Below are positions 3,795 through 16,246 of a DNA stretch of 32,000 nucleotides, one piece after another (the first letter of the stretch is position 1; each line of letters begins with the position of its first letter). The position numbers and the translations under genes were made by a program. This stretch comes from Acaryochloris thomasi RCC1774. GTDB taxonomy: Bacteria; Cyanobacteriota; Cyanobacteriia; Thermosynechococcales; Thermosynechococcaceae. The stretch covers positions 1 through 32,000 of the forward strand of contig NZ_PQWO01000013.1 in the NCBI RefSeq assembly GCF_003231495.1, in the 5' to 3' direction. The notes beneath the pieces are model-generated. The model did no database searches. It worked only from the letters and a program-made list of their open reading frames with translations, and had not been told where the DNA came from.

Positions 3795-5159
3795 TTAGAA
3801 AAATTTGAGATAGCGCTGAATTTCCCAATCAGAGATGTGACAGTGATACTCTTCCCATTCTTGGGTTTTGAAGTCAATGTAGGTCTGGTACATGAGAGGG
3901 CCCATCACCTCTTTGCTGAGCGGGTCGGCGGCGAAACTTGCGATCGCATCCCCCAAAGTCTTCGGCAGCGTCTCAACCCCCATCTCCTTGAGTTCTTCAA
4001 GGGAATAGTCATACATATTCTCAGTATGAGGTGCCCCAGGGTCTAACCCTTCTCGGATGCCCTCTAGCCCAGCCGCTAAAATCATCGCTGCACCTAAATA
4101 AAGATTAGTCGAAATATCGGCAGCACGGCATTCCACTCGTCCACCTCCGAGAGGAATACGGAGCATATTGGTACGGTTATTGTTGCCATAGCAGACATAA
4201 ACAGGTGCCCAGGTAAATCCAGACATGCTGCCCTTGCGGACCAGCCGCTTGTAGCTGTTCACCGTCGGACAGGTGACTGAAACAATGGCTTTAGCGTGCT
4301 TCAATACCCCAGCAATAAACTGATAGCCCAGCTTCGAGAGGCCACAGGTATCAAGCGGGTCTTCAAAGAGATTTTTACCCGTTTCAGGATCCGCCAGGGA
4401 CATATTGTAGTGGGCACCGCTGCCGGTCTGATTGGCAAAAGGCTTAGGCATAAAGCTAGCAAAGTAGCCTTCTTCTCTCGCCAGTTCCTTAACCATGAAG
4501 CGAAAGAACGTCAGCCGGTCGGCCATCTTGAGGCCATCGCAGTAAGTGAAATCAGTCTCAAACTGGCCCTGAGCATCTTCGTGGTCAAAGGAATAGACAT
4601 CCCAGCCCAGGTCATTCATGGCACTGACAATGCGATCGATGATTTTGTAGTTATCCAGCACCGTTGGCAGCGCATAGGCCGCCTTGGGTAGGGTGTCGCG
4701 ATCGCTGACCGGACTAAATCCGCTTTCAGTTTCCTTGAAAATAAAGAACTCCGTTTCGATTCCTAAATTAAAGCGATAGCCCATGTCTGCAGCCTGCTTC
4801 AGAACCCGCTTGAGGATGGTGCGGCTGCAGGCTTCAAAGGGTTCGCCCACCAGATGCAAATCGCTGGCAAACCAGGCGATCTCAGAGTTCCAGGGTAGAA
4901 CAGTAACGCTGTCGGGGTCAGGCATTGTACCCACTTCATCATCGTTAATCTCCTGAGGAACGCCATCAAGGGCAGCACCTGTGAATAACTCAGAACCCTG
5001 CATCATTCGGTCAAAATGACTCATGGGGACAACTTTGCCCTTGCACATGCCGTGAATATCGACAAAGCTCGCCATTGCATATTTCACCCCTTGCTCCTGG
5101 AGTGTTGACTGCAGTGCCTGGAGTTCAGGAGAAAGAGATTGGAAGTTGGGGAAAGACAT
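3795..5159 (-). CDS. Glutamine synthetase-like ATP-dependent gamma-glutamyl ligase (paralogue A)
   Basis: The protein is 454 aa. GS catalytic motifs are present: GIETEFF, FDHEDAQGQFE, GSGAHYN, NSYKRL, MLRIP, VECR. The N-terminal beta-grasp region is VDIHGMCKGKVVP. ATG at 5159. Confidence 0.85.
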   Translation of the reverse strand: MSFPNFQSLSPELQALQSTLQEQGVKYAMASFVDIHGMCKGKVVPMSHFDRMMQGSELFTGAALDGVPQEINDDEVGTMPDPDSVTVLPWNSEIAWFASDLHLVGEPFEACSRTILKRVLKQAADMGYRFNLGIETEFFIFKETESGFSPVSDRDTLPKAAYALPTVLDNYKIIDRIVSAMNDLGWDVYSFDHEDAQGQFETDFTYCDGLKMADRLTFFRFMVKELAREEGYFASFMPKPFANQTGSGAHYNMSLADPETGKNLFEDPLDTCGLSKLGYQFIAGVLKHAKAIVSVTCPTVNSYKRLVRKGSMSGFTWAPVYVCYGNNNRTNMLRIPLGGGRVECRAADISTNLYLGAAMILAAGLEGIREGLDPGAPHTENMYDYSLEELKEMGVETLPKTLGDAIASFAADPLSKEVMGPLMYQTYIDFKTQEWEEYHCHISDWEIQRYLKFF

Positions 5160-5186
5160 AGGGCTATATGCGAGTTGAGCGTGAAT

Positions 5187-5897
5187 CTAGACAGAGAGAG
5201 AAACAGGAACAAGATTAATCCAGAAGTTTGCCACCTGTTCGGCAAAGCGGGCTGACTGATGAGCATAGTGCGCGAGCTGTTCAGCCACCTGCTGATCGAG
5301 ATCAGGATAGTTTTTCTCAACCCACTCATTTTTTGTCGCCAGCCATTTCCTGACGATCTCAGGCGTGACCTCTAGATGAAATTGAAAGCCATAAATATTG
5401 CGGCCGATGCGATACGCCTGATGTTTACAGATGTCATTGGTCATCAGCAGGGTGGCCTGATTGGGTAAATCAAAGGTATCAAAGTGCCACTGCATCAGGT
5501 GTAAATCATCAGGGCAGCCCTGCAGCCAGGGTTCCTCCGCCGTGGGGTCAGCCACCGTAATAGGCACAAAACCAATTTCAGGCACCGTGTGTGGATAGAC
5601 CTGACGACCGAAGGCGCGAGCAATTAACTGCGCTCCTAAACACACACCCATGATGGGTTTTCCCTCTGCGTGAAATTGATGAATGAGTTCTACGCATTGA
5701 TGCAGATGTGGAAATTTTTCATCTTCATGGGCATTCATTGAACCGCCCAGAAGAATCAAACCTGCATAGTCCCCTTCAGGTGGTGCTTCTTCCTCTGCTG
5801 ACAACCAGATGGACAGGTTGGCCCCTTGCTGAATTAGGGCGTCACCTAAGACGCCAATAGGATCTAAAGCACCACTTTGGATTACAAGGATATTCAT
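5187..5897 (-). CDS. Class-I glutamine amidotransferase-fold protein (candidate gamma-glutamyl-amide hydrolase)
   Basis: The nucleophile elbow is GVCLGAQL. GFQFHLEV supplies the His/Glu of the triad. It is a stand-alone 236-aa GATase1 domain with no synthase domain attached. It lies 27 nt upstream of GS-like paralogue A on the same strand. Confidence 0.85.
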   Translation of the reverse strand: MNILVIQSGALDPIGVLGDALIQQGANLSIWLSAEEEAPPEGDYAGLILLGGSMNAHEDEKFPHLHQCVELIHQFHAEGKPIMGVCLGAQLIARAFGRQVYPHTVPEIGFVPITVADPTAEEPWLQGCPDDLHLMQWHFDTFDLPNQATLLMTNDICKHQAYRIGRNIYGFQFHLEVTPEIVRKWLATKNEWVEKNYPDLDQQVAEQLAHYAHQSARFAEQVANFWINLVPVSLSV

Positions 5898-5949
5898 TGC
5901 GATCGCATCTGAATCTTATTTAGACCAATAAGCAGTTTCATACTGCCCT

Positions 5950-6804
5950 CTAAATATGCCTGACGATAAAGCTTAAAACTGTATCCAGAAAATCAAGCAG
6001 AGGATCTAGAAAGCCTAGAGACTCCTGAGAATCTAGAAAATCAAGCCCAGAATATAGCAAAGCAATCATCGGGCTATCTGATAGTGGCAGTTCTAGCACC
6101 AACCACAAAGCTGCAGCTATAAACGTCAAAGCTGCTAGGAATAGCAAACGCTTCTCTTCAGGCCCCATATCAATGCGAAACTTCTGTCCACTGAGTTCGG
6201 ATGCGCGGTAAAGCGTATAGCGGCTCGGGGACGGCAGCTTATCTCGATAGTCAGTTCCATAACGCGCTGTGTGGGCAAAGGTCAATGCACCCACAGAACG
6301 TTGAGATAAAATCCGACGCCTTTGGTAGGGAACGGTATAGTCGCCAAAGGAGTCCATATATTCTTCACTATCAAGCAGCTCAGCAATGAAGCCCCTCAGA
6401 CCTTTTGTAGCCAGAACAATGGACCAAGCCAACTTCTCCCGCTCGTTATAGACGGGGCGGCCTAAGAGCCGTTGAATGCAGAGTTCAGTAAATCGATAGT
6501 TATTGTTGACCTCATAATTGAGCCGCCGAAAGGCTTCGGATGTCGCTAAGCCTCGAATAAACTCTTTTACTGTGATTTGGCCAATTCTAAGCTGTGACTC
6601 TAGAAAAGGTTGTCGGCAGGCAGAGAGGTTCTGCTGTTCATGATAGACCTGCAGATAAGCCGCTTCGATCAAGCTATCCATTTCACTTGCTGAGAGTACG
6701 TACTGAATTGAATAGACTCTTGCCTGCTCATCGCTAGGAAGCTCAAAGCTTGCAACGCGATTGTTCTGAGATGCAGGAGGATACTTCAGCAAAGGTAGTG
6801 CCAT
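5950..6804 (-). CDS. cpcL: Phycobilisome rod-core/rod-membrane linker, CpcG family with a hydrophobic C-terminus (CpcL/CpcG2 type)
   Basis: The N-terminus is MALPLLKYPPASQNNRV. The PBS-linker domain is FLESQLRIGQITVKEFIRGLATSEAFRRLNYEVNNNYRFTELCIQRLLGRPVYNEREKLAWSIVLATKGLRGFIAELLDSEEYMDSFGDYTVPYQRRRIL, which closely matches CpcG sequences as I recall them. A predicted TM helix LLFLAALTFIAAALWLVLEL spans aa 220-239. Confidence 0.85.
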   Translation of the reverse strand: MALPLLKYPPASQNNRVASFELPSDEQARVYSIQYVLSASEMDSLIEAAYLQVYHEQQNLSACRQPFLESQLRIGQITVKEFIRGLATSEAFRRLNYEVNNNYRFTELCIQRLLGRPVYNEREKLAWSIVLATKGLRGFIAELLDSEEYMDSFGDYTVPYQRRRILSQRSVGALTFAHTARYGTDYRDKLPSPSRYTLYRASELSGQKFRIDMGPEEKRLLFLAALTFIAAALWLVLELPLSDSPMIALLYSGLDFLDSQESLGFLDPLLDFLDTVLSFIVRHI

Positions 6805-6882
6805 ATGGAAAGCCTTTCAAGCTAGACGTGATTTCCATAAACCATTCTAGAGTTAACTGATTCGATTCATCATTGGCATATT

Positions 6883-7962
6883 TTACTGTTCTGCAAGGAG
6901 ACTTTTCATCGGTTCAAAGGCAATGCCAGCTTCAGGCTCTGCTTTTTCCTCTACTAGCCCGAACTTCATCCACCATTCACTGGTGAGATCCCAGTGGTCT
7001 CTAATTTGTCCATTCTTCATGCCCAGAGGTGGCTCTCCCTCGGCTAACCCCATGAACTTCGAGGCTTCTTCTAAATCAAAGACCGCAATGCCGCCTTTAT
7101 AGATTTCGCCGTCGGCACCAATCACGTTCTCTACATCTTTGACGTCAAACTTTAAGCCTTCGGCAATAATCTTGTTGCCCTCTTCCGGGTTCTCTTTCCA
7201 GAACGTAACTGCCTCGAAGTAGGCTTTCATAAGCAGCTTCGCGGCTTCAGGACGATCGTTCAACAGCGATTCGCTCATATACATGCCATCCCCCAATAAA
7301 GCCGTTTTAATCCAGAAATCCTCGCTAGAACTTGTTACGGCCCGTGCGCCCTCTAAGCCTTCTAGGACTTGGGTGCCGAATGGCTCCCAGAACTCTCCTG
7401 CGGCCACTTCGCCAGAGAGCATCGCGGCGACGGCATCATCCATAATCACATTGGTAAATTCGACATCTTTGAAGTTGACGCCATTCTCCTCTAGCCAAAT
7501 GCCCATATAAATCTGAGTGAGTCCCCCTTCGAGCACCGCGACCTTTTTCCCCTTCAACTCTGAAGGATCTTTAATTTGAGGGCTGAGGATGATGCGATCG
7601 GTTCCATAGGAGGGGTTTGTATAGCTCACCAGTTTTACAGGAACGTCTTTATCTACAGCGATGGGGCCATACTCCACTGTGCTAGAGGTGGCATCGAGCT
7701 GGCCCGAACTCATGAGGTTGAAGCTTTCGTAAGGATCTTCAATAATGCTGATATCGAGATCTAGCTCAGGAACAAGGTTCTTCTCTTTAGCAATGAACCA
7801 GAAGCCATACCCCGGCCAAGAGAACAGTGAGACTTTAACGGTCTCTTTCTTCTCAACACCTCCTGATGCTCCAGAGTTACCGGAGGTCTGTGAGCTACAG
7901 GCGACCACTGTGAAAGTGACAGCCATTAGGCAAACGAATCCGAACAGTCTTCTTCTTTTCAT
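6883..7962 (-). CDS. ABC transporter substrate-binding lipoprotein, NMT1/NitT-TauT family
   Basis: ATG at 7962 gives MKRRRLFGFVCLMAVTFTVVAC, a lipoprotein signal with a lipobox Cys. The body (VSLFSWPGYGFWFIAKEKNL..GQLDATSS..) resembles nitrate/sulfonate/taurine-type binding proteins. The track ORF start at 8064 would overlap the permease gene and is rejected. Confidence 0.8.
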   Translation of the reverse strand: MKRRRLFGFVCLMAVTFTVVACSSQTSGNSGASGGVEKKETVKVSLFSWPGYGFWFIAKEKNLVPELDLDISIIEDPYESFNLMSSGQLDATSSTVEYGPIAVDKDVPVKLVSYTNPSYGTDRIILSPQIKDPSELKGKKVAVLEGGLTQIYMGIWLEENGVNFKDVEFTNVIMDDAVAAMLSGEVAAGEFWEPFGTQVLEGLEGARAVTSSSEDFWIKTALLGDGMYMSESLLNDRPEAAKLLMKAYFEAVTFWKENPEEGNKIIAEGLKFDVKDVENVIGADGEIYKGGIAVFDLEEASKFMGLAEGEPPLGMKNGQIRDHWDLTSEWWMKFGLVEEKAEPEAGIAFEPMKSLLAEQ

Positions 7963-7978
7963 GAGGCACTCCACACAG

Positions 7979-8797
7979 TTAGTTTTTTGCTTGATGTAGA
8001 TAGGGGAAAAGTTGCCAGTGCAGCAGTCGCAAAGCGGTATCAAACAGCAGGCCCAAGACACCAATCACCAAAATGCCAGCCATAATTTCATCGACGTGGA
8101 CAAATCGCTTGGCCCGCATCATTACGGCTCCGATACCGTTGGTGGCCGCCACGATTTCAGCAATCACCAAATAGGTCCAGCTCACCGCCAGCATTTGCCG
8201 GAGGGTATCGACAATGTTAGGTAGGGCCGCTCGAAAAATGACGGTTCCCAAAATGCTGCGTTTACTCGCCCCTAGCGTTTTTGCGGTTTCCACTAGCTCC
8301 ATGCGAACAGCCTGGGTGTTGTCCATAATTAGCGTGATTAGAAACCAGACAACGCCCAGTACCAGGAGCACAATTTTCTGTTCATCTCCGGTGCCCAGCC
8401 ACATGAGCAGGAGCGGAATGAACGATGGGGCTGGTAAATAACGAAAGGGAGAAACAAGGGGATTGAAAAAGGCTGCCACGATGGGAAAGGTACCCATCAA
8501 GAGACCTAAGGGGAGAGCAATTGTGATCGCAATCCCGTAACTAATCAAAATCCGAAAGACGCTCTGCAGCACATCAGCTAGAAAATCTTGCTCGGCAAAC
8601 AAAATCCACAGGGCCGTAAATACTGTCAGGGGCGGCGGAAATAGCTGCTCGCTGATCTGTCCACTGGTAGCTAAAACATGCCAGCCCACTAAGAACAGTA
8701 TCCAGCTCGAAAGCCCCAACAGTACCTGTAATTGCCTAGAAACAGGTTTCTTGATATCAAAGCCAGAAAGAACCCGAGGCTCAGCGAGCTGGATCAT
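7979..8797 (-). CDS. ABC transporter permease (NitT/TauT family)
   Basis: The protein is polytopic and hydrophobic and has a binding-protein-dependent transport inner-membrane motif region (..AKTLGASKRSILGTVIFRAALPNI..). ATG at 8797 overlaps the ATPase stop by 17 nt. The track start at 8803 is TTG. Confidence 0.85.
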   Translation of the reverse strand: MIQLAEPRVLSGFDIKKPVSRQLQVLLGLSSWILFLVGWHVLATSGQISEQLFPPPLTVFTALWILFAEQDFLADVLQSVFRILISYGIAITIALPLGLLMGTFPIVAAFFNPLVSPFRYLPAPSFIPLLLMWLGTGDEQKIVLLVLGVVWFLITLIMDNTQAVRMELVETAKTLGASKRSILGTVIFRAALPNIVDTLRQMLAVSWTYLVIAEIVAATNGIGAVMMRAKRFVHVDEIMAGILVIGVLGLLFDTALRLLHWQLFPYLHQAKN

Positions 8798-9638
8798 GGG
8801 CAACTTCCCTCATCAAATGCATAATTCTCTTTTGCAGGTCGATATATTCAGAGATTTCATACATGCTTTCCTTGGTGATTGGCTTGGCCTCACCCTGTCG
8901 CGGAGCTGGGATAATTTCTCTGATCGTTCCGGGGTGGCTGGAGAGGAAAACAATTTTGTCAGCTAGGAATAGAGCTTCATCAACGTCGTGAGTGACCATC
9001 AGCACCGTCATGTTCTCGGTACGGACAATATCTAGAAGCAGCTCCTGCATCTGCCACCGGGTTTCGGGGTCCAGTGCGCCGAAGGGTTCATCCATGAGTA
9101 AGATTTCTGGACCGTTGGCGAGGGCGCGTGCGATCGCAACTCGCTGTCGCATTCCCCCTGAGAGCTGACCGGGATAAGCATCTCTAAATTGCGTCAGCCG
9201 GACACGATCAATAAAATGGTTGGCGATATCACGACGTTCGGCTCGGGGGATACCGTTAACTTTGAGACCGTACTCGACATTCTCTCTAACGGTCAACCAG
9301 GGGAAAGAAGTATAGCTTTGAAAGACCATACCGCGATCTCGTCCTGGCCCCGCAATCGGGTGACCAGATAGTAAAATCTTGCCTGCCGAAATGGACTCTA
9401 GACCGGCCACCATTCGCAGGATTGTAGACTTACCGCACCCTGAGGGGCCGAGCAAAATACCAATCTCGTTCTGTTGAACGTTAAAAGAGACGGAGTCAAC
9501 GGCGCAAAGCTGCTTGCGTCCTTTTAGTTGAAAGATTTTGCAGGCCTTATCAACACTGAGTTTTTCCGCAACCGGGTTAGCAGGTTCAGTCCTTTGAAGA
9601 TGAGGTTTCTGAAGCGCAGTGGGTGATGGACTTGCCAA
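8781..9638 (-). CDS. ABC transporter ATP-binding protein (NitT/TauT family)
   Basis: Walker A is GPSGCGKST, the signature is [15 protein letters not shown] and Walker B is [28 protein letters not shown] is typical of the TauB/SsuB/NrtD type. The start is TTG at 9638, 7 nt after a strong aaggagg. Confidence 0.9.
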
Positions 9639-9799
9639 AAGAGAACCTCCTTTCTATAGGGCGAGCAGTACGATTCGAGAATCCACTGTTTAACCGCGAT
9701 CAAAAAGCAGGAGAAAAGGTTTCTAGCACCTTTAACAAACGAGATGGTGCATTGAAAACCCCTGCATTCAAGAGCTTAAGGCCGTTTTAGCGATTCCCT

Positions 9800-10712: not shown

Positions 10713-10836
10713 TATTTAAAAGCTTTTAGCAGGGGGTACCTCTTTACTATTACCTCGAGCGTAATTGAATTGACTACTTCTTCTAGTCACAATTGGACTG
10801 TGAAATCAAACCATACTCACGCCCAAAGGATGCATC

Positions 10837-11208
10837 ATGATGAATATCTCGACTCAGCAGCGCTCCCAATCTCAGGGTCTAAGCAAGATTTATCTCATCT
10901 TTATCATTCTCAGTCTGGTGATATCGTGGGGAATTTTTTTGCAGTTTTTGCTTTCAGGTGAGGCTTCAGTTTCCCTTTTCTTCGAACAGGCTTTAGCGAC
11001 TCCGGTTTCAAGGCTCCTCTCCAGCGATATTGCTATCTCTGCGTTCATCTTTTTCATTTTTGCTTACGTCGAACTGAAGCGATTTCAGATGCCCTCTAAC
11101 CTACTTGTAATTTATATTCTCGGTACGTTTTCTGTTGGTATTTGCTTCGGTCTCTCTCTATTTCTCTATCAAAGAGAAACGTGGTTCAAGCACTCCCAGC
11201 CCCAGTAA
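10837..11208 (+). CDS. Small integral membrane protein (3 predicted TM helices; possibly DUF2834-like)
   Basis: Hydrophobic segments are IYLIFIILSLVISWGIFLQFLL, IAISAFIFFIFAYV and LLVIYILGTFSVGICFGLSLFLY. It is divergent from the regulator. The family assignment comes from memory only. Confidence 0.5.
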   Translation: MMNISTQQRSQSQGLSKIYLIFIILSLVISWGIFLQFLLSGEASVSLFFEQALATPVSRLLSSDIAISAFIFFIFAYVELKRFQMPSNLLVIYILGTFSVGICFGLSLFLYQRETWFKHSQPQ

Positions 11209-11234
11209 TTCACGAGCGGGTATATTCGGATATC

Positions 11235-12104
11235 TCAGATTTCCACGGTACTCTTTTCCATGAATCGCTTACGTTGCCGCTGAGCCATCCAGCAGGTTAT
11301 GTCCCAAACATCAGCGACAGGCATTGCACTGTAGGGCAATGTTTGCATGTAGCCATCCCAAAGAAATTCAGGCATCATCGTGGTCTGTAGCATGCCTCGC
11401 TTGGCTTGCAGCTTCCAAATGAGATCCCACCAGCGTTCGTGGGCCGTTAGTGCTTCTGTATATTCTGGTGCGCGTGGATCAGACACTTGAGCATGTTGAG
11501 GGTAGCCCACCCGACACTGAACATGCATTGCTCGTTCAGCACAAAGCTCAAGAATTGACCATTCTGAATCAATTAGCCGCTCACAGACGACACACCAATG
11601 GCTAAAGTCGCAGGTCAATTTCATCTGCGGAAATTCGTTGAGGAGATCTCGCGTAATCCAAGGATTGAAAAGAGATCGCCCTCGATGAGTTTCAAAGCTA
11701 ATTGTGATTCCAGAGCTGCTCTCTAGCTCTAAGGCTTGACCGAAGAAATCGACGTTTTGTGACCAGGACCAGGCATCGTACCCACACATTGTCGAAACGA
11801 AAAGTGCTCCCATCTCTGCAGCATGTTCAACAGTCCATCTCAAGTCTGATAGGTGATCAGCAATGGTTTTGTCTGGGCGAGGTATCCACCAGTCGGAGGG
11901 GCTGCCAAAATCTCCGCCGGTTGTTGATTCGGCAATAAAAAAAAGTTCATGATCGGCAAGGAGTTTTTTGTAGCGTTGTTGCTCTGCCACACTTTGGGGG
12001 ATGGGGCCTTCGATGCCGTCGAAGCCATCTGTGACAGTTTGGGTAACTAGGTTTTCTAGGGAGGCTGGACCAGTCCATTGCGATCGCAACATCAATAAAT
12101 CCAC
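11235..12104 (-). CDS. Xylose-isomerase-like TIM-barrel protein (sugar phosphate isomerase/epimerase family)
   Basis: The length, and motifs such as FETHRGR and CDFSHW around metal-ligand-like His/Asp/Glu positions, fit the AP-endonuclease-2/xylose isomerase-like fold. The start is GTG at 12104, preceded by gagagga. An alternative ATG lies at 12092. Confidence 0.65.
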   Translation of the reverse strand: MDLLMLRSQWTGPASLENLVTQTVTDGFDGIEGPIPQSVAEQQRYKKLLADHELFFIAESTTGGDFGSPSDWWIPRPDKTIADHLSDLRWTVEHAAEMGALFVSTMCGYDAWSWSQNVDFFGQALELESSSGITISFETHRGRSLFNPWITRDLLNEFPQMKLTCDFSHWCVVCERLIDSEWSILELCAERAMHVQCRVGYPQHAQVSDPRAPEYTEALTAHERWWDLIWKLQAKRGMLQTTMMPEFLWDGYMQTLPYSAMPVADVWDITCWMAQRQRKRFMEKSTVEI

Positions 12105-12199
12105 GGCATCCTCTCTGGCTGATTATGCAGGAATCTTATCGCTTCACCTCAGAATATTGTCTCGATAGTAGAAAAACGAGCGTGACTTCTCTTGAGATC

Positions 12200-12213
12200 G
12201 TAACTGCGGCTAC
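12200..12213. promoter_or_regulatory. Perfect GTAN8TAC palindrome (NtcA-box consensus) in a divergent promoter region
   Basis: gtaactgcggctac lies between the TIM-barrel gene (-) and the GS-like/ADH/ALDH operon (+). The spacing to candidate -10 elements is non-canonical in both directions: about 35 nt to tacgct on the plus strand and about 29 nt to tactat on the minus strand. Confidence 0.3.
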
Positions 12214-12268
12214 AAACGCTTTCAGATAAGGCTGTTTGACTAAAGCTATACGCTCGGAGACCCTCACA

Positions 12269-13594
12269 ATGGTAGGAACGCTCACGCAGACTACGACGCT
12301 GTTTGAACAGGCCCAAGCTCTCGGTATCAAGTTTTTTCTGGTGTCTTACACCGACCTACTGGGCGGGACCAGAGCCAAGCTCGTCCCCGCCGCTAAAATT
12401 GCATCTGTTGAAAAGAACGGAGCTTTCTTCTCTTCCTTTGCTTCTAATTTAGGCTTAGGACCGGATGCTGCTGAAATTGCTGCGATTCCAGATCCAAGCT
12501 CACTGATTCAGCTTCCTTGGGAGCCGACAGTCGGCTGGGTTGCCAGTGACGTTTACTTTGAAGGCAAGCCCTTCCCCGCTGCGCCACGCACGATTCTCAA
12601 TCAGGTTTTAGATGAATGTATTGAGTTGGGATATACCTATAAAGCTGGAATCGAAGCCGAGTTCTTTCTACTCAAAAAGACAGATGTGGGCTATGTCGTA
12701 GCCGACGACCGCGATACAGCAGAGCGTCCCTGCTATGACCAGCTCAACCTAATGCGCCAGTTTGATCTGATTTCTGAAGTGGTGGGGTACATGGAAGCGC
12801 TGGGATGGGAGCCTTACCAATGTGATCACGAAGATGCCAACGGTCAGTTTGAGCTGAACTGGAGCTTCAGCGAGGCCAAGGTGGCTTGCGATCGCCATGT
12901 CTTCTTTAAATACATGGTTAAAACCTTGGCTGAGAAGCGCGGCTTCACCGCCACCTTCATGCCCAAGCCCTTCAGCCACATTACCGGCAGCGGCGGTCAC
13001 GTTCACAATAGCCTCTGGCAGGGCGAGACCAACAGCTTTGCCGAGGGCGCAGACAAGGGCGGACTCTCGCCCGTCGGCTATCACTTCTTGGGGGGCGTAT
13101 TAGAACACGCCAAGGGGCTGACGGCCTTGTTTGCCCCCACCGTGAATTCCTATCGCCGTTTGGGAGCTAGTTCCACCACCTCAGGCAGCACCTGGTCACC
13201 GCGCTACATTTCCTATGGCGGCAACAATCGGTCCCACATGCTGCGCATTCCTGAAGCCGGACGCTTTGAGTGTCGCTTGATTGATGGGGCCGCCAATATG
13301 TACCTAGCTTTAGCAGGGTTGCTGGCAGCAGGGATAGACGGCATCAAAAAACAAACGTCCCCTGGAGAGCGCATTGATGAAAATCTGTACGCACGCGGCT
13401 CGGAGTTCCCAGATTTGCCGACGCTGCCAGCCAATCTGTATGAGGCACTCAAGGCACTGAAGCAAAATGAGCTGCTCATGGAAACGCTCGGCGATCTAGG
13501 TGCAAAAACCTTCTTTGAGTTCAAAGAGAAGGAGTGGAACGCGTTCTGCGATCAGGTGACGGACTGGGAAATGAACCATTACATCGATATTTAA
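12269..13594 (+). CDS. Glutamine synthetase-like ATP-dependent gamma-glutamyl ligase (paralogue B)
   Basis: GS motifs are present: GIEAEFF, CDHEDANGQFE, GSGGHVH, NSYRRL, MLRIP, FECR. ATG at 12269 is preferred over the TTG at 12236 used by the track. Confidence 0.85.
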   Translation: MVGTLTQTTTLFEQAQALGIKFFLVSYTDLLGGTRAKLVPAAKIASVEKNGAFFSSFASNLGLGPDAAEIAAIPDPSSLIQLPWEPTVGWVASDVYFEGKPFPAAPRTILNQVLDECIELGYTYKAGIEAEFFLLKKTDVGYVVADDRDTAERPCYDQLNLMRQFDLISEVVGYMEALGWEPYQCDHEDANGQFELNWSFSEAKVACDRHVFFKYMVKTLAEKRGFTATFMPKPFSHITGSGGHVHNSLWQGETNSFAEGADKGGLSPVGYHFLGGVLEHAKGLTALFAPTVNSYRRLGASSTTSGSTWSPRYISYGGNNRSHMLRIPEAGRFECRLIDGAANMYLALAGLLAAGIDGIKKQTSPGERIDENLYARGSEFPDLPTLPANLYEALKALKQNELLMETLGDLGAKTFFEFKEKEWNAFCDQVTDWEMNHYIDI

Positions 13595-13603
13595 GGGGAG
13601 TCT

Positions 13604-14785
13604 ATGGCTTCTGAAACCTCAACCTATAACTTTCCGACCAAGATTCGCTTTGGTGCAGGCGTCAGGACGGAGCTGCTGTCAGAACTTACGGCTCTGGGCA
13701 TCCAGCGGCCCCTGCTGGTCACCGATAAAGATGTGGCTGCACTTTCCTGGTTCTCGGCCATTGAAGATTCTCTCTCTGTTTTAAAGGTCGGTACCTTTAG
13801 CAGCTTTTGGGGCAACCCAGTTGTTTCTCAAGTCGTGGCAGGACAGTCAGCTTATCAATCTCATGGAGCTGATGGCATTATCGCCGTGGGCGGTGGCGCT
13901 CCGATGGATGTCGCCAAGGCGATCGCACTTATGGCTCACCATCCAGGGCATCTGTTTGACTATGAAGACGGAGCCAGCACTCGACCGATTGATCAGCCCA
14001 TTCCACCCATTCTGGCGATTCCAACAACGGCAGGGACCGGTAGTGAAGTGGGTCGCAGCGCCGTGATCTCTGACGATGAAACCCACGCGAAGAAGATTGT
14101 TTTTGATCCGCGGCTACTGCCTCAGGTGGTGCTGGCTGATCCAGAACTGTTATTGGGACTTCCGGCCAAAATCACGGCAGCAACAGGTATGGATGCCTTG
14201 ACTCATTTGATTGAGGCGTTCTTGGCTAAGGGCAGCAATCCACTGTGTGACGGCATTGCTCTGGAGGGAATTTATCTGGTGTCGCAGCACCTAAAAGATA
14301 GCGTTCTGTTTGCCCAGCAGTTGGCCTCAGGGGAATCCGTTGATGAAGCCGATCATTTGAGATCGCGAGCGGGGATGTTAAATGCTTCGATGATGGGTGC
14401 GATCGCGTTTCAAAAAGGTTTAGGCGTTACCCATTCCTGTGCCCATGCCCTCTCAACGGTATGCGATACCCACCACGGCCTCGCCAACGGGGTGATGCTG
14501 CCCGCTACCATGCGGTTTAATCAATCGGCAGCACCAGAAAAGTTCTTACGGATGGCTAGAATTGTGAATCCAGCCGCAACTAGCGGCACAGATTTCATTG
14601 ACTGGATTGTTGAGCTATCCAGCGGGATTGGCATACCTCCGACGCTTAGTGAATTGGGCGTGTCGAGCGAACAGGTGGAGCAACTTATCAACGTGGCGAT
14701 TGATGATGGCTGCCATCCCCTGAATCCGAAGCCAGTGAACCGAGACGATTTTGCCGCGATTTACCAGGATGCGCTAGCTGCCTAG
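13604..14785 (+). CDS. Iron-containing (group III) alcohol dehydrogenase
   Basis: GGGAPMDVAKAIAL is the GGGSxxDxAK-type motif. Metal His motifs are THSCAHALS and HHGLANGVMLP. It starts 9 nt after GS-like B, with aagggga upstream. Confidence 0.9.
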   Translation: MASETSTYNFPTKIRFGAGVRTELLSELTALGIQRPLLVTDKDVAALSWFSAIEDSLSVLKVGTFSSFWGNPVVSQVVAGQSAYQSHGADGIIAVGGGAPMDVAKAIALMAHHPGHLFDYEDGASTRPIDQPIPPILAIPTTAGTGSEVGRSAVISDDETHAKKIVFDPRLLPQVVLADPELLLGLPAKITAATGMDALTHLIEAFLAKGSNPLCDGIALEGIYLVSQHLKDSVLFAQQLASGESVDEADHLRSRAGMLNASMMGAIAFQKGLGVTHSCAHALSTVCDTHHGLANGVMLPATMRFNQSAAPEKFLRMARIVNPAATSGTDFIDWIVELSSGIGIPPTLSELGVSSEQVEQLINVAIDDGCHPLNPKPVNRDDFAAIYQDALAA

Positions 14786-14793
14786 GACCCTCT

Positions 14794-16194
14794 ATGACCG
14801 ACTTCATTTCTGTCTTTAACCCTGCAACAGAGGAGCTAATCAAAGAGATTCCCGTTGACGATAGCGCAGCGGTGGCGCAAAAGGTACAACATGCTCGGAG
14901 TGCCCAGCCAGCCTGGGCTTCGCTGCCGCTTCCTGAACGGATTGGAGCTTTGGAAAAGTTCAGAGACTTACTAATCCAGCAGGTTGAAACACTAGCTGCA
15001 ACGATGACGGCAGAAACTGGAAAGCCGATTTCTCAGTCGAAGAGTGAAATTCTCGCAACGCCCCAGCGCATTGACTTCTTTTGTGAACATATTGCGCAAG
15101 TGTTGACGCCGCAGCGCGTTTATCAGGAACCATGGCAGGCGCTGCCAGGCACAGGCCAGCTAGAAGAAGTCATTTCCTATGATCCGCTGGGGGTTATTGC
15201 CAATATCTCTGCCTGGAACTACCCATATTTTGTTGGAACGAATGTTTTTGTCCCAGCGTTGCTGACCGGCAATGCTGTTGTGTATAAACCGTCTGAAGTA
15301 GCGACGATGACAGGGCTTGCAATCGCATCCCTTCTCCACGAAGCAGGCATCCCCCAAGATGTGTTTATTCCCATCATTGGCGCAGGAGAAACAGGAGCGG
15401 CCCTGCTAGAGCAGGCCATCGACGGTATATTTTTCACAGGCTCTTACGGGACAGGGCAGAAAATTGCGATCGCAGCTGCTCCAAAGCTGATCAAGACACA
15501 GCTAGAGCTTGGAGGTAAAGATCCGGCCTACGTCTGCGACGATGCTGATGTGGCGACAGCGGCGGCAGGTCTTGCGGACGGAGCCTTCTACAACAACGGC
15601 CAAAGCTGCTGCGGAATAGAACGCATCTATGTACATAAAGACGTATATAAGCCATTCATCGAAAAATTCTTACACACTGTACAAAGTTTCAAAGGGGGCG
15701 CTCCCACCGAGCCTCAAACCTATCTTGGTCCCCTCAGCCGTCAGCCCCAACTGATCGCCTTAAGGCAGCAGGTCAAAGATGCTTTAGATAAAGGTGCTCA
15801 ATTACGCTGTGGTGGACATTCCCTTGCAGGTCCGGGTTGGTACTTTGAGCCAACGGTACTCACAAAGGTGACGCACGACATGCTGATCATGCAAGAAGAG
15901 TCCTTTGGTCCTGTGATTGGTATTCAGTGCGTTGAGGATGATGAAAGTGCGATCGCACTCATGAACGACACCAAGTATGGACTCACAGCATCGGTGTATA
16001 GTGCCAGCCGAAAACGGGCCGTAGGCATTTTGAGCCAAGTGAACAGCGGGAGTTCTTATTGGAACTGTTGCGATCGCGTCAGCCCCAGACTTCCCTGGAC
16101 GGGGCGAGGGCATTCAGGCATCGGATCTACCCTCTCGGTGGCGGGAATCTATGCTTTTTTGCAGCCTCGGGCTTGGCATCTAAAGAGCCACTAA
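14794..16194 (+). CDS. NAD(P)+-dependent aldehyde dehydrogenase
   Basis: The catalytic Glu motif is ELGGKDP. The catalytic Cys motif is NNGQSCCGIERIYV. EESFGPV is also present. It starts 8 nt after the Fe-ADH stop. Confidence 0.9.
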   Translation: MTDFISVFNPATEELIKEIPVDDSAAVAQKVQHARSAQPAWASLPLPERIGALEKFRDLLIQQVETLAATMTAETGKPISQSKSEILATPQRIDFFCEHIAQVLTPQRVYQEPWQALPGTGQLEEVISYDPLGVIANISAWNYPYFVGTNVFVPALLTGNAVVYKPSEVATMTGLAIASLLHEAGIPQDVFIPIIGAGETGAALLEQAIDGIFFTGSYGTGQKIAIAAAPKLIKTQLELGGKDPAYVCDDADVATAAAGLADGAFYNNGQSCCGIERIYVHKDVYKPFIEKFLHTVQSFKGGAPTEPQTYLGPLSRQPQLIALRQQVKDALDKGAQLRCGGHSLAGPGWYFEPTVLTKVTHDMLIMQEESFGPVIGIQCVEDDESAIALMNDTKYGLTASVYSASRKRAVGILSQVNSGSSYWNCCDRVSPRLPWTGRGHSGIGSTLSVAGIYAFLQPRAWHLKSH

Positions 16195-16246
16195 GACAAC
16201 AGCGAGCGCTACAATCGAAACCAATCGCACGTAAGGCACACCCATC

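What the first reader, a model, noticed from the sequence alone, without database searches (positions are those of the whole stretch)
3795..16194. Candidate gamma-glutamylation-dependent amine/amino-alcohol uptake and catabolism locus in a cyanobacterium
Seen in the sequence:
- One tight plus-strand operon encodes a GS-like ligase (12269-13594), an Fe-alcohol dehydrogenase (13604-14785) and an aldehyde dehydrogenase (14794-16194), with 9-nt and 8-nt gaps.
- A minus-strand gene string encodes the ATPase, permease and binding lipoprotein of a NitT/TauT-type ABC importer, then a stand-alone GATase1-fold protein with an intact Cys/His/Glu triad (5187-5897), then a second GS-like ligase (3795-5159).
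- Between the two lie an MmyB-like regulator, a small membrane protein and a TIM-barrel enzyme.

Established knowledge: GS-like ligase, dehydrogenase(s) and GATase1/C26-type hydrolase is the logic of the Puu/Pau polyamine pathways, the Pseudomonas ipu isopropylamine/alaninol pathway, and the GlnA4 ethanolamine route proposed in Streptomyces coelicolor.

Inference:
- An alcohol dehydrogenase is present rather than an amine oxidase. This points to a hydroxylated amine such as ethanolamine or aminopropanol.
- The proposed route is gamma-glutamylation, oxidation of alcohol to aldehyde to acid, then hydrolysis to glutamate plus an amino acid.
- To my knowledge such a pathway has not been characterised in cyanobacteria.
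- The substrate and the role of the NitT/TauT-type importer are open.
Basis: partly seen in the sequence, partly recalled or inferred. Interest (0 to 1): 0.75.

Follow-up and report, generated by a model that had tools for sequence, protein, structure and literature searches.

The report
Nitrogen-regulated gamma-glutamyl amine-scavenging gene cluster
A marine cyanobacterium carries a five-gene module, shared with dozens of related species and apparently switched on by nitrogen shortage, that most likely harvests nitrogen from a small amino-alcohol such as ethanolamine by tagging it with glutamate, a known bacterial strategy here built from an unusual mix of enzyme families.

Summary
The genes are real and lie at the stated coordinates in Acaryochloris thomasi RCC1774.

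The conserved unit is five genes, not the whole 12.4 kb:
- GS2, Fe-ADH and ALDH in one operon (gaps of 9 and 8 nt).
- GATase and GS1 in a second operon.

The module recurs in about half of 80 cyanobacterial species loci. Presence of the GATase tracks presence of ADH+ALDH (Fisher p = 1e-5).

Both ligases belong to the GmaS/GlnT family (methylamine-type ligases). They are not PuuA-, GlnA4- or ethanolamine-ligase types. They lack the ammonium-binding Asp and the Glu-flap Glu of true glutamine synthetase.

The Fe-ADH and ALDH have their best plasmid matches in the ALDH/Fe-ADH pairs of proteobacterial gamma-glutamyl-ethanolamine operons.

A canonical NtcA box, GTA-N8-TAC, sits 69 nt upstream of GS2. 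It is conserved in 68 of 77 orthologous loci.

The ABC importer plus TIM barrel is a separate mobile module. It joins the cluster only in the closest relatives.

Verdict: a chimeric, nitrogen-regulated variant of a known pathway logic. The substrate is unproven. An amino-alcohol is favoured and methylated amines are the main rival.

The parts
12200..12213 (+). NtcA-type box GTAACTGCGGCTAC, 69 nt upstream of the GS2 start codon
   Evidence: It is one of only 3 GTA-N8-TAC matches in the 32-kb window. The same motif occurs within 250 nt upstream of GS2 in 68 of 77 orthologous loci, mostly at -67 to -82. The background is 0.04 per 250 nt.
12236..12241 (+). -10-like hexamer TTGACT inside the conserved element CTGTTT(T/G)ACT, 22 nt after the NtcA box
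   Evidence: The element and its 22-nt spacing are conserved in the 18 of 69 loci printed. The hexamer is not the canonical TAN3T. Only 1 of 69 loci has TAN3T at that spacing.
12269..13594 (+). GS2: GmaS/GlnT-family gamma-glutamyl-amine ligase, first gene of the GS2-ADH-ALDH operon
   Evidence: TIGR03105 scores 573 bits against a cutoff of 470. BLASTP identity to Rhodovulum GmaS (7cql) is 53%. All RhGmaS amine-pocket residues are kept, and Trp replaces the GS Glu-flap Glu. These residues are invariant in 78 orthologues.
13604..14785 (+). Iron-type alcohol dehydrogenase, predicted gamma-glutamyl-amino-alcohol dehydrogenase
   Evidence: Pfam Fe-ADH and ADH_Fe_C. The best plasmid matches (41% identity) are the Fe-ADHs of GS-ALDH-FeADH ethanolamine-type operons. 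It follows GS2 in 35 of 60 loci.
14794..16194 (+). Aldehyde dehydrogenase, predicted gamma-glutamyl-amino-aldehyde dehydrogenase
   Evidence: Pfam Aldedh, E = 1.9e-127. Glu238 and Cys272 are conserved. The best plasmid matches (37-38% identity) are the ALDHs of the same ethanolamine-type operons.
5187..5897 (-). Stand-alone class-I glutamine-amidotransferase-fold protein, predicted gamma-glutamyl-amide hydrolase
   Evidence: PF00117. The Cys86/His174/Glu176 triad is conserved. It lies divergent from GS2 in 37 of 68 loci and co-occurs with ADH+ALDH (Fisher p = 9.5e-6). Legionella lytica has a GS-ALDH-FeADH-class-I-GATase operon.
3795..5159 (-). GS1: second GmaS-family ligase with an altered amine pocket, downstream of the GATase (27-nt gap)
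   Evidence: TIGR03105 scores 561 bits. BLASTP identity is 42% to the Glu-methylamine ligase 9qur and 39% to GS2. The pocket changes Q175S and N188D are fixed in 23 of 23 orthologues. Of the 15 loci with GS1 and both flanks long, 13 also have ADH+ALDH and the GATase.
6883..9638 (-). NitT/TauT-type ABC importer: ATPase 8781-9638, permease 7979-8803, lipoprotein SBP 6883-7962. It is accessory, not part of the conserved core
   Evidence: Among the 80 loci it occurs next to GS1/GS2 only in L007. The SBP is 62-71% identical to SBPs of marine Gammaproteobacteria. The TIM+ABC module occurs without GS genes in L090 and L091.
11235..12104 (-). Xylose-isomerase-like TIM-barrel protein, travelling with the ABC importer, divergent from GS2
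   Evidence: PF01261. Orthologues lie next to GS2 in L005 and L007 and next to the ABC genes in L090 and L091. No PDB or NCBIfam match.
9906..10712 (-). MmyB-like HTH regulator, lineage-specific and a possible local regulator
   Evidence: PF17765 and HTH_3. No orthologue in any of the 80 related loci.
10837..11208 (+). DUF2834 small membrane protein, lineage-specific
   Evidence: PF11196. Not found in related loci.
5950..6804 (-). CpcG/CpcL-like phycobilisome rod-core linker with a hydrophobic C-terminus. It is a passenger gene inside the cluster
   Evidence: PF00427, E = 3.5e-43, with CpcG2/3-like NCBIfam hits. RCC1774 is reported to have four CpcG-like genes, three with a hydrophobic C-terminus (PMC6002478). 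Absent from all related loci.

Best explanation
The conserved core is a nitrogen-stress module of five genes that extracts nitrogen, and an amino acid, from a small primary amine carrying a terminal hydroxyl. The five genes are GS2-FeADH-ALDH plus GATase-GS1. Ethanolamine is the leading candidate substrate.

Proposed steps, all inferred:
1. Under nitrogen limitation NtcA activates the GS2 operon.
2. A GmaS-family ligase uses ATP to join the amine to the gamma-carboxyl of glutamate. GS2 is the candidate by operon position. GS1 is the candidate by its diverged pocket and its restriction to module-bearing loci.
3. The Fe-ADH oxidises the gamma-glutamyl-amino-alcohol to the aldehyde.
4. The ALDH oxidises the aldehyde to a gamma-glutamyl-amino-acid, which would be gamma-Glu-Gly for ethanolamine.
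5. The class-I GATase-fold hydrolase releases glutamate and the amino acid.

The pathway is a mosaic:
- The two dehydrogenases are homologous to those of the proteobacterial ethanolamine operon.
- The ligases come from the methylamine (GmaS) family.
- The hydrolase is a GuaA-like GATase rather than an N-formylglutamate-amidohydrolase type.

In A. thomasi an independently mobile TIM-barrel plus NitT/TauT ABC importer module, an MmyB-like regulator and a CpcL-like gene have been inserted between the two operons. Whether the importer supplies the substrate is open.

Shown here: gene content, family membership, co-conservation, homology of the ADH/ALDH pair, and the conserved NtcA box. Inferred: substrate, order of reactions, which ligase acts, and regulation.
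For: - Operon structure: GS2-ADH-ALDH with gaps of 9 and 8 nt.
- Conservation: GS2-ADH-ALDH in 32 of 60 loci. The GATase associates with ADH+ALDH (21/27 against 3/22, p = 9.5e-6). GS1 is almost confined to module-bearing loci.
- Tight divergon GS1-GATase <> GS2-ADH-ALDH in Nodosilinea PCC 7104, Leptolyngbya PCC 7375 and Synechococcus PCC 7335.
- The Fe-ADH and the ALDH independently find their best matches, among 72,556 plasmids, in the adjacent ALDH/Fe-ADH pairs of RpiR-FGase-TRAP-GS-ALDH-FeADH operons.
- That architecture is the ethanolamine-induced Phaeobacter operon, homologous to the C. salexigens pathway (PMC10132767).
- The NCBIfam hit profiles of the window enzymes and the Paracoccus enzymes mirror each other.
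- Legionella lytica has GS-ALDH-FeADH followed by a class-I GATase. This is a precedent for that type of hydrolase in this kind of operon.
- Both ligases lack the GS ammonium-binding Asp50' and the Glu-flap Glu. RhGmaS is promiscuous for C1-C3 amines (PMC7948447).
- The NtcA box is conserved in 68 of 77 loci with a conserved 22-nt spacing to a -10-like element.
- The catalytic residues of the GATase and the ALDH are conserved.
Against: - GS2 is 53% identical to a biochemically verified methylamine ligase and keeps every residue of its amine pocket.
- No alignment column separates ADH-linked GS2 orthologues from unlinked ones. About 18 of 49 loci have GS2 alone. GS2 may therefore have a function independent of ADH/ALDH.
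- Its nearest proteobacterial relatives sit in mgsABC-gmaS-mgdABCD methylamine clusters.
- Some cyanobacterial loci place the module next to tmm and a tdm-like gene, next to Amt transporters, or next to soxD/A/G-like genes.
- Identity of the ADH and ALDH to the ethanolamine-operon enzymes is only 37-41%. The comparison set was plasmids, not all genomes.
- Ethanolamine was never tested on any GmaS in the paper read.
- The role of a second ligase is unexplained.
- No ethanolamine-type transporter (TRAP EtoX or Eat) is present.
- The -10 hexamer downstream of the NtcA box is non-canonical.
Confidence: 0.5

Rival explanations
1. This is a methylated- or short-alkyl-amine assimilation locus. GS2, and perhaps GS1, are true gamma-glutamylmethylamide (or ethylamide) synthetases. 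Their substrate would be monomethylamine arriving through Amt-type uptake or produced by the Tmm/Tdm breakdown of trimethylamine. The ADH, ALDH and GATase would then either dispose of C1/C2 aldehydes or form a still-undescribed route that replaces the N-methylglutamate pathway (mgsABC/mgdABCD).
For: - GS1 and GS2 pass the TIGR03105 cutoff.
- GS2 is 53% identical to RhGmaS with an identical amine pocket. The pocket is invariant in 78 orthologues.
- The closest proteobacterial homologues lie in mgsABC-gmaS-mgdABCD clusters.
- PCC 7335 has tmm (780 bits, cutoff 675) and a tdm-like gene beside GATase-GS1. Tdm-like or Tmm genes also lie within 10 kb in L020, L037 and L071.
- Amt-family transporters lie next to GS2-ADH-ALDH in 6 loci.
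- In L004 and L077 the GS2 orthologue is followed by soxD/A/G-like genes.
- Several PDB relatives of the Fe-ADH are NAD-dependent methanol dehydrogenases.
Against: - Gamma-glutamylmethylamide has no hydroxyl for an NAD-dependent ADH to oxidise.
- No mgsABC or mgdA is in the window or in most loci.
- The best homologues of the ADH and ALDH act on gamma-glutamyl-ethanolamide intermediates, not on formaldehyde.
- A hydrolase acting directly on the ligase product would create a futile cycle.
- tmm and tdm neighbours occur in only 4 of about 80 loci.
Confidence: 0.2
2. There is no single pathway. GS2 is an independently acting NtcA-regulated enzyme. The ADH-ALDH pair, GATase-GS1 and the TIM+ABC module are separate nitrogen-scavenging units that cluster in an island because they share regulation.
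For: - GS2 occurs alone in 18 of 49 loci. No residue distinguishes linked from unlinked orthologues.
- The neighbourhood is highly variable: AgcS, Amt, amine oxidase plus RidA, amidase, Rieske oxygenase, and a GntR-hydroxylase-MetX-like trio.
- The TIM+ABC module is found elsewhere without GS genes.
Against: - The gaps between GS2, ADH and ALDH are 2-20 nt in many loci, which implies co-translation.
- There is a strong statistical association between the GATase and ADH+ALDH.
- The four enzyme types match exactly the four steps of a known pathway.
Confidence: 0.12
3. This is a Puu-like polyamine or diamine catabolic cluster. The route would be gamma-glutamylation of putrescine, 1,3-diaminopropane or spermidine, oxidation to the gamma-glutamyl-amino-aldehyde, ALDH, then hydrolysis.
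For: - The enzyme logic is the same.
- Six related loci carry a flavin amine oxidase plus RidA between the GATase and GS2.
- Some orthologous GATases are named gamma-glutamyl-GABA hydrolase family by NCBI.
- The window ALDH scores 312 bits against the aminobutyraldehyde dehydrogenase model, below its 615-bit cutoff.
Against: - There is no amine oxidase in the window.
- GS1 and GS2 score 265-267 bits against the PuuA model, whose cutoff is 650.
- The Peptidase_C26 match of the GATase is marginal at 22 bits.
- The pocket is that of a small-amine ligase.
- An ADH would be superfluous.
Confidence: 0.07
4. GS2 is an auxiliary ammonium-assimilating glutamine synthetase (GlnT, 'type III glutamate-ammonia ligase', as annotated) that is induced by nitrogen starvation in the way glnN is.
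For: - The NCBI and PGAP name.
- An NtcA box upstream.
- RhGmaS has weak activity with NH4+ (Km 8.7 mM).
Against: - Asp50' is replaced by Ser, Cys or Ala, and the Glu-flap Glu by Trp, in all orthologues.
- RhGmaS prefers methylamine by about 300-fold in Km.
- Linkage to ADH, ALDH and GATase would have no explanation.
Confidence: 0.05

Closest known systems
Gamma-glutamyl-ethanolamine pathway of Chromohalobacter salexigens, Agrobacterium and Phaeobacter sp. MED193. The operon is RpiR, gamma-Glu-Gly amidohydrolase, TRAP EtoVWX, ethanolamine gamma-glutamylase, gamma-glutamyl-acetaldehyde-amide dehydrogenase, gamma-glutamyl-ethanolamide dehydrogenase (Vetting 2015 as cited in PMC10132767)
   Same: - The same four reaction types: ligase, Fe-ADH, ALDH, amidohydrolase.
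- The window Fe-ADH (41% identity) and ALDH (37-38%) have their best plasmid matches in these operons.
- The ligase and the two dehydrogenases form one operon.
   Different: - The ligase belongs to a different GS-like subfamily. GS1 and GS2 are 26-32% identical to the operon ligases. GS2 gives E = 1e-31 against 5dm3, while the Paracoccus operon ligase gives 3e-180.
- The hydrolase is a class-I GATase fold, not an N-formylglutamate amidohydrolase.
- The ADH/ALDH gene order is reversed.
- There is no TRAP transporter and no RpiR regulator.
- There is a second ligase.
- Control is NtcA-type.
GmaS (gamma-glutamylmethylamide synthetase, glutamate-methylamine ligase; 'GlnT/type III GS', TIGR03105) of the N-methylglutamate pathway. 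Examples are Rhodovulum RhGmaS (PDB 7cql) and PDB 9qur
   Same: - GS1 and GS2 pass the family cutoff.
- GS2 is 53% identical to RhGmaS with an identical amine pocket. GS1 is 42% identical to 9qur.
- Both lack Asp50' and have Trp in place of the Glu-flap Glu.
- In an NJ tree each groups with a GmaS reference.
   Different: - There are no mgsABC or mgdABCD partners. The partners here are an Fe-ADH, an ALDH and a class-I GATase.
- GS1 has Q175S and N188D in the pocket.
- The host is a cyanobacterium, and the operon carries a conserved NtcA box.
Streptomyces coelicolor GlnA4 ethanolamine route (SCO1611-SCO1615; PMC6529630)
   Same: - The predicted sequence is the same: gamma-glutamyl-ethanolamide, then the aldehyde, then gamma-Glu-Gly, then Glu plus Gly.
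- Expression is repressed by ammonium and controlled by a neighbouring regulator.
   Different: - GlnA4 and the SCO1615 hydrolase (formylglutamate amidohydrolase family) belong to other families according to the paper. No sequence comparison with GlnA4 could be run here.
- The regulator is EpuRI, not NtcA or an MmyB-like protein.
Legionella lytica plasmid operon GS-ALDH-FeADH-'GMP synthase' (uncharacterised; L087)
   Same: - The same four enzyme types, including a stand-alone class-I GATase as the presumed hydrolase.
- Its Fe-ADH is the best-scoring plasmid match of the window Fe-ADH (41% identity, 287 bits).
   Different: - Its ligase is of the ethanolamine-ligase type (31-33% identical to the Paracoccus and Microbulbifer ligases), not the GmaS type.
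- Its GATase is only 24% identical to the window GATase.
- It has a single ligase.
Puu/Pau polyamine pathways, and the GS-like plus GATase-like pairs of the aniline and isopropylamine (ipu) pathways
   Same: - A GS-like ligase is paired with a class-I GATase-fold hydrolase.
- Oxidation takes place on the gamma-glutamylated intermediate. This point rests on established knowledge and was not tested here.
   Different: - The PuuA model scores far below its cutoff.
- The window has no PuuB-type oxidase, P450 or Rieske oxygenase.
- The substrates of those pathways are diamines, arylamines or isopropylamine.

Membership tests
GmaS / GlnT (NCBIfam TIGR03105) | Whole-protein score above the curated family cutoff | tested here: met
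   GS1 scores 561 bits and GS2 573 bits against a cutoff of 469.6. The GlnA, PuuA and GlnII models all score below their cutoffs.
GmaS / GlnT (NCBIfam TIGR03105) | Loss of the GS ammonium-binding Asp50' and of the Glu-flap catalytic Glu, which is Trp300 in RhGmaS (PMC7948447) | tested here: met
   GS2 has Ser55 and Trp309. GS1 has Thr60 and Trp317. The pattern is conserved in 78 GS2 and 23 GS1 orthologues.
GmaS / GlnT (NCBIfam TIGR03105) | Conserved methylamine pocket: Lys30', Tyr147, Gln175, Asp177, Glu179, Glu186, Asn188 | tested here: inconclusive
   GS2 keeps all seven residues. GS1 keeps five and has Gln175 to Ser and Asn188 to Asp.
GmaS / GlnT (NCBIfam TIGR03105) | Genomic partnership with N-methylglutamate synthase (mgsABC) and dehydrogenase (mgdABCD) | tested here: not met
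   None of these genes is in the 32-kb window. The proteobacterial homologues do have them. Only L004 and L077 have soxD/A/G-like genes after GS2. The rest of the genome could not be searched.
GmaS / GlnT (NCBIfam TIGR03105) | ATP-dependent ligation of methylamine to glutamate, with preference over NH4+ | not testable with these tools
   This needs an enzyme assay.
Gamma-glutamyl-ethanolamine (Eto) pathway | Ligase orthologous to the ethanolamine gamma-glutamylase (Csal_0679/MED193_10046 type, PDB 5dm3-like) | tested here: not met
   GS1 and GS2 are 26-32% identical to the Paracoccus, Marinovum, Microbulbifer and Legionella operon ligases. GS2 against 5dm3 gives E = 1e-31, while the Paracoccus ligase gives 3e-180. 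These ligases fall outside the GmaS clade.
Gamma-glutamyl-ethanolamine (Eto) pathway | Fe-ADH and ALDH homologous to the operon's two dehydrogenases | tested here: met
   Both have their best plasmid matches in adjacent ALDH/Fe-ADH pairs of such operons: Fe-ADH 40-41% identity, ALDH 36-38%. The identity is moderate, so the same substrate is not proven.
Gamma-glutamyl-ethanolamine (Eto) pathway | N-formylglutamate-amidohydrolase-type gamma-Glu-Gly hydrolase and a TRAP ethanolamine transporter | tested here: not met
   There is no FGase or TRAP gene in the window. The window GATase found no match (E <= 1e-3) to the two operon FGase proteins included in the BLAST reference set, while it matched the Legionella GATase.
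Gamma-glutamyl-ethanolamine (Eto) pathway | Induction by, and growth on, ethanolamine; detection of gamma-glutamyl-ethanolamide | not testable with these tools
   This needs experiments.
Puu pathway (PuuA/B/C/D) | PuuA-type ligase, PuuB oxidase and PuuD (Peptidase C26) hydrolase | tested here: not met
   The PuuA model NF045547 scores 265-267 bits against a cutoff of 650. There is no oxidase gene in the window. The Peptidase_C26 match is 22 bits over 35 residues, while PF00117 scores 74 bits.
NtcA regulon (cyanobacterial global nitrogen control) | GTA-N8-TAC box about 22 nt upstream of a -10 element, conserved across orthologues | tested here: met
   The box lies at 12200-12213 and is conserved in 68 of 77 loci. 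The 22-nt spacing to CTGTTT(T/G)ACT is conserved, but the hexamer is not TAN3T. NtcA binding and nitrogen-dependent transcription were not tested.
NitT/TauT ABC importers | NMT1/SsuA-fold lipoprotein SBP with a BPD_transp_1 permease and an ABC ATPase | tested here: met
   Pfam and NCBIfam hits. The SBP scores below every substrate-specific cutoff (SsuA_fam 92 bits against 163), so its ligand is unknown.

The most novel reading that the evidence does not exclude
Filamentous marine cyanobacteria may possess a previously undescribed, NtcA-controlled way of assimilating methylamine or other short alkylamines. GmaS-type ligases would feed a hydroxylation, ADH, ALDH and class-I-GATase sequence instead of the N-methylglutamate pathway. 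Diiron (FA_desaturase-like) or Rieske oxygenases seen next to the module in relatives could perform the hydroxylation. This would make these phototrophs direct consumers of methylated amines, and of trimethylamine where tmm and tdm are linked.
Probability: 0.12. Interest if true: 0.8.

Novelty: new variant of a known kind. Interest (0 to 1): 0.55.

Why it matters
Cyanobacteria are usually treated as users of inorganic nitrogen, urea and a few amino acids. A module that appears nitrogen-regulated, is conserved in dozens of benthic and marine filamentous species, and glutamylates and oxidises small organic amines would add ethanolamine-like or methylated amines to their nitrogen budget. These amines are abundant products of lipid and osmolyte turnover.

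The locus also shows pathway assembly by mixing families. Methylamine-type ligases are combined with ethanolamine-type dehydrogenases and a GuaA-like hydrolase. It corrects misleading annotations ('type III glutamate-ammonia ligase', 'glutamine synthetase 3', 'carbamoyl-phosphate synthase small chain').

Cultured strains carry the module (RCC1774, PCC 7104, PCC 7375, PCC 7335), so the prediction can be tested directly.

Tried and rejected
- Rfam scan of the whole window, looking for glutamine or other riboswitches: no match.
- Generic sigma-70 promoter and terminator scan: fewer or no more sites than in shuffles, so uninformative.
- Look-up of the exact A. thomasi GS2 protein in the assembly index: not on record.
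- Vetting 2015 could not be read because it is not held. A search for Csal_0679 gave only an unrelated paper.
- A literature search meant to identify PDB 9xfs, the closest structure to the GATase, and gamma-glutamylanilide or IpuF hydrolases returned noise.
- PDB and NCBIfam searches for the TIM-barrel protein gave nothing.
- PDB matches of the SBP were too weak (E >= 6e-7, SsuA-type) to suggest a ligand.
- I looked for residues separating ADH-linked from unlinked GS2 orthologues as a specificity signal and found none.
- I looked for a second NtcA box upstream of the ABC, CpcL, GATase and GS1 string. There were only one-mismatch matches, which I did not pursue.
- I considered GS1 and GS2 as true glutamine synthetases and rejected this on active-site grounds.
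- I considered a PuuD/C26 assignment for the GATase and rejected it as marginal.
- One assembly look-up failed for technical reasons.
- I ran no structure prediction. A monomer model would not resolve the inter-subunit amine pocket.

Full report
**Origin and gene map**

The window comes from Acaryochloris thomasi RCC1774. The GS2 protein and the GATase are 100% identical to that strain's deposited proteins.

- Minus strand: GS1 3795-5159, class-I GATase 5187-5897, NMT1/SsuA-type lipoprotein SBP 6883-7962, permease 7979-8803, ATPase 8781-9638, MmyB-like regulator 9906-10712, AP_endonuc_2 TIM barrel 11235-12104.
- Plus strand: DUF2834 10837-11208, GS2 12269-13594, Fe-ADH 13604-14785, ALDH 14794-16194. 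The gaps between the last three are 9 and 8 nt.

It is presumably one of the CpcG-like genes already reported for this strain. No related locus has it, so I treat it as a passenger.

**What the two GS-like proteins are**

- Both pass the curated cutoff of NCBIfam TIGR03105 ('type III glutamate-ammonia ligase', GlnT). GS1 scores 561 bits and GS2 573 bits against a cutoff of 470. Both fall far below the cutoffs for GlnA and for PuuA.
- Their closest solved structures are glutamate-methylamine ligases. GS2 matches Rhodovulum GmaS 7cql (E = 5e-154, 53% BLASTP identity). GS1 matches 9qur (E = 1e-117, 42% identity). GS1 and GS2 are 39% identical to each other.
- I mapped the residues described for RhGmaS (PMC7948447) onto both proteins.
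  - Both lack the GS ammonium-binding Asp50' (Ser55 in GS2, Thr60 in GS1).
  - Both carry Trp where GS has the catalytic Glu of the Glu flap.
  - GS2 keeps all seven amine-pocket residues.
  - GS1 has Gln175 to Ser and Asn188 to Asp.
- These states are invariant in 78 GS2 and 23 GS1 orthologues.
- In an NJ tree the GS2 clade is sister to RhGmaS and the GS1 clade is sister to 9qur. The ligases of proteobacterial ethanolamine operons fall outside.
- The nearest proteobacterial plasmid homologues of GS2 (49-51% identity) lie in canonical mgsABC-gmaS-mgdABCD methylamine clusters.

Conclusion: neither protein is an ammonium-assimilating GS, a PuuA-type ligase or an ethanolamine-ligase-type enzyme. 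Both are GmaS-family ligases.

**Conservation**

A scan of one genome per species with GS2 returned 80 loci. All are cyanobacterial, with 68-93% identity, and most are Leptolyngbya-, Nodosilinea- or Phormidesmis-like filamentous forms and marine MAGs. Tabulation by tblastn and by ORF clustering gave these counts.

| Subset of loci | Total | With the feature |
|---|---|---|
| At least 3.2 kb downstream of GS2 | 60 | Fe-ADH in 35; Fe-ADH and ALDH in 32 |
| At least 2.5 kb upstream of GS2 | 68 | GATase in 37 |

- Where Fe-ADH follows GS2, the gap is usually 2-400 nt.
- The GATase lies divergent from GS2.

Among the 49 loci with both flanks long:

- 13 have the full set (ADH+ALDH, GATase and GS1).
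- 8 lack only GS1.
- 6 have only ADH+ALDH.
- 18 have GS2 alone.
- 4 show other combinations.

The GATase is present in 21 of the 27 loci with ADH+ALDH and in 3 of the 22 without (Fisher p = 9.5e-6). Nodosilinea PCC 7104, Leptolyngbya PCC 7375 and Synechococcus PCC 7335 show the compact divergon GS1-GATase <> GS2-ADH-ALDH. The conserved functional unit is therefore these five genes.

**The accessory genes**

- The ABC importer and TIM barrel accompany GS1 and GS2 only in the closest relatives.
  - In L007 the operon is TIM-ATPase-permease-SBP-Rieske oxygenase-GS1.
  - In L005 the TIM barrel is divergent from GS2.
- The SBP is 62-71% identical to SBPs of marine Gammaproteobacteria.
- The TIM+ABC module occurs without any GS-like gene in Halopseudomonas pelagia and in another cyanobacterial contig.
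- The MmyB-like regulator and DUF2834 protein have no counterpart in any related locus.
- The importer is thus a separately mobile module inserted here. Its ligand is unknown, because every substrate-specific model scores below cutoff.
- Other loci carry different transporters beside the module: AgcS-type Na+:alanine/glycine symporters or Amt-family proteins.

**Link to a known pathway**

I searched 72,556 plasmids with the window Fe-ADH and, separately, with the ALDH.

- Both find their best matches in the same places. These are the adjacent ALDH/Fe-ADH pairs of RpiR, N-formylglutamate amidohydrolase, TRAP, GS, ALDH, Fe-ADH operons in Paracoccus, Marinovum, Microbulbifer and others.
- Identities are 40-41% for the Fe-ADH and 37-38% for the ALDH.
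- That architecture is the ethanolamine-induced operon of Phaeobacter MED193. Its products are annotated as ethanolamine gamma-glutamylase, gamma-glutamyl-ethanolamide dehydrogenase, gamma-glutamyl-acetaldehyde-amide dehydrogenase and gamma-Glu-Gly amidohydrolase. It is homologous to the C. salexigens pathway (PMC10132767).
- The NCBIfam hit profiles of the window enzymes and the Paracoccus enzymes mirror each other.
- The best-scoring Fe-ADH match is in a Legionella lytica operon: GS-ALDH-FeADH followed by a stand-alone class-I GATase annotated 'GMP synthase'. This is a precedent for that type of hydrolase in this pathway logic.
- The window GATase is GuaA-like. PF00117 scores 74 bits, while Peptidase_C26 scores only 22 bits. 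Its PDB relatives include uncharacterised GATases and, more distantly, plant gamma-glutamyl peptidase 1. Cys86, His174 and Glu176 are conserved.

**Regulation**

- A perfect GTA-N8-TAC box, the NtcA consensus by established knowledge, lies at 12200-12213, 69 nt upstream of the GS2 start. It is one of only three matches in 32 kb.
- The motif is present within 250 nt upstream of GS2 in 68 of 77 orthologous loci, mostly at -67 to -82. The background is 0.04 per 250 nt.
- It is followed after 22 nt by a conserved CTGTTT(T/G)ACT element. The spacing is that of NtcA-activated promoters, but the hexamer is not the canonical TAN3T.
- This is strong comparative evidence that the operon responds to nitrogen status. 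Binding and expression remain untested.

**Most likely mechanism**

Confidence is about 0.5. Under nitrogen limitation a GmaS-family ligase glutamylates a small amino-alcohol. The Fe-ADH and the ALDH oxidise the gamma-glutamyl-amino-alcohol to a gamma-glutamyl-amino-acid. The GATase-fold hydrolase then releases glutamate and the amino acid. Ethanolamine, which would yield glycine, is the leading candidate because of the ADH/ALDH homology. Alaninol, aminopropanols and aminobutanol cannot be excluded.

Which ligase acts is unresolved. GS2 is always operonic with ADH-ALDH. GS1 has a fixed, diverged pocket and occurs almost only where the module is present.

**Main rival and other alternatives**

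The main rival (about 0.2) is methylated- or alkyl-amine metabolism.

- GS2 is indistinguishable from GmaS at the pocket.
- No residue separates ADH-linked from unlinked orthologues.
- GS2 stands alone in many genomes.
- PCC 7335 places tmm (above its NCBIfam cutoff) and a tdm-like gene beside GATase-GS1. Similar genes lie within 10 kb in L020, L037 and L071.
- Amt transporters and soxD/A/G-like genes accompany GS2 in other loci.
- Against it: gamma-glutamylmethylamide offers nothing for an NAD-dependent ADH to oxidise, and mgsABC and mgdA are absent.

Other alternatives are an island of independent nitrogen-scavenging units (0.12), a Puu-like diamine pathway (0.07) and an auxiliary GS (0.05).

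**Novelty**

- The pathway logic is known in Proteobacteria and Streptomyces (PMC10132767, PMC6529630).
- The searches found no description of it, or of GmaS-type genes with a function, in cyanobacteria.
- The assembly is a new variant: methylamine-family ligases (two of them), ethanolamine-type dehydrogenases, a GuaA-like hydrolase and NtcA-type control.
- The substrate is unproven, so I score interest as moderate. It would rise considerably if the module proved to be a new methylamine route.

Noticed in passing
window 5950-6804 (-): A CpcG/CpcL-like phycobilisome rod-core linker gene with a hydrophobic C-terminus sits inside the amine cluster, between the SBP and the GATase. It has gaps of 78 and 52 nt on the same strand, so it may be co-transcribed with nitrogen-scavenging genes. 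No related locus has it.
   Followed up: partly
window 6883-7962 (-); L090 5961-10856: The cyanobacterial SBP is 62-71% identical to SBPs of marine Gammaproteobacteria (Halopseudomonas, Alcanivorax, Marinobacter, Thalassolituus). The TIM-barrel plus ABC module, with an FA_desaturase-like gene, is conserved in Halopseudomonas pelagia. This suggests horizontal transfer of a module of unknown substrate.
   Followed up: partly
L089 (Synechococcus sp. PCC 7335) 12204-17843: Beside GATase-GS1 lie four further genes. They are a CoA-acylating methylmalonate-semialdehyde dehydrogenase, a TMAO-demethylase-like gene (834 bits, below cutoff, and lacking the first 150 or so model positions), a 162-aa ORF, and a trimethylamine monooxygenase above its cutoff. 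Tdm-like or Tmm genes also lie within 10 kb in L020, L037 and L071.
   Followed up: partly
L004 11325-15252 and L077: In Pseudanabaena sp. FACHB-2040 and one MAG, the GS2 orthologue (74-75% identity) is followed directly by soxD-, soxA- and soxG-like genes. These resemble mgdBCD. No soxB/mgdA or mgsABC is nearby.
   Followed up: partly
L007 3457-9929 (-); L091 10972-12249: In the closest long relative contig, the operon is TIM barrel-ABC-Rieske oxygenase-GS1. The Rieske protein resembles glycine-betaine and carnitine monooxygenases (GbcA, CntA). It replaces the GATase and CpcL genes of the window. The GS2 orthologue there has no ADH or ALDH. A similar Rieske gene follows the ABC module in L091.
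   Followed up: partly
L001 1-2957, L035 5017-6558 and at least 9 other loci: A third, more distant GS-like paralogue (about 30% identical to GS2, TIGR03105 297 bits, below cutoff) recurs within 10 kb of the module. It is often accompanied by an FmdA/AmdA amidase, an SBP_bac_3 protein and a PhyH-type dioxygenase.
   Followed up: partly
L006, L008, L028, L029, L045, L089 and others, just downstream of ALDH: A conserved trio lies next to the module in at least 10 loci and next to GS2 alone in L010, L019 and L031. The trio is a GntR/HutC regulator, an FA_desaturase-family protein (weakly GntB-like, which is an arginine hydroxylase) and a MetX-like alpha/beta hydrolase. Its function is unknown, and it is absent from the window.
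   Followed up: partly
L014, L016, L045, L019, L034, L072: A flavin amine oxidase plus a RidA-family gene lies between the GATase and GS2 in several loci. An amidase-signature amidase lies between GS1 and the GATase in L014 and L015.
   Followed up: no
window 12214-12245 and orthologous loci: A strongly conserved element, AAA-N(about 13)-GGCTGTTT(T/G)ACT, lies downstream of the NtcA box. It may be an extended -10 promoter (TGn-TTTACT) or a second regulatory site.
   Followed up: partly
window 16247-17424: Two overlapping, convergent Uma2-family (putative restriction endonuclease-like) genes lie immediately downstream of the ALDH and mark the end of the operon.
   Followed up: no
window 5187-5897 and 12269-13594: The source names returned for the A. 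thomasi RCC1774 proteins call the GATase 'carbamoyl-phosphate synthase small chain' and GS2 'glutamine synthetase 3'. Both names are misleading in view of the family and active-site results.
   Followed up: yes
window 222-2424 and 17531-31996: The flanking genes look unrelated to the finding.
- Upstream: a Zn-ADH (threonine-dehydrogenase-like) and 4-hydroxyphenylpyruvate dioxygenase.
- Downstream: a GT4 glycosyltransferase, a 2OG-Fe(II) oxygenase, a bacteriophytochrome-like histidine kinase, a fatty-acyl-AMP ligase, a TPR protein and a GGDEF protein.
   Followed up: no
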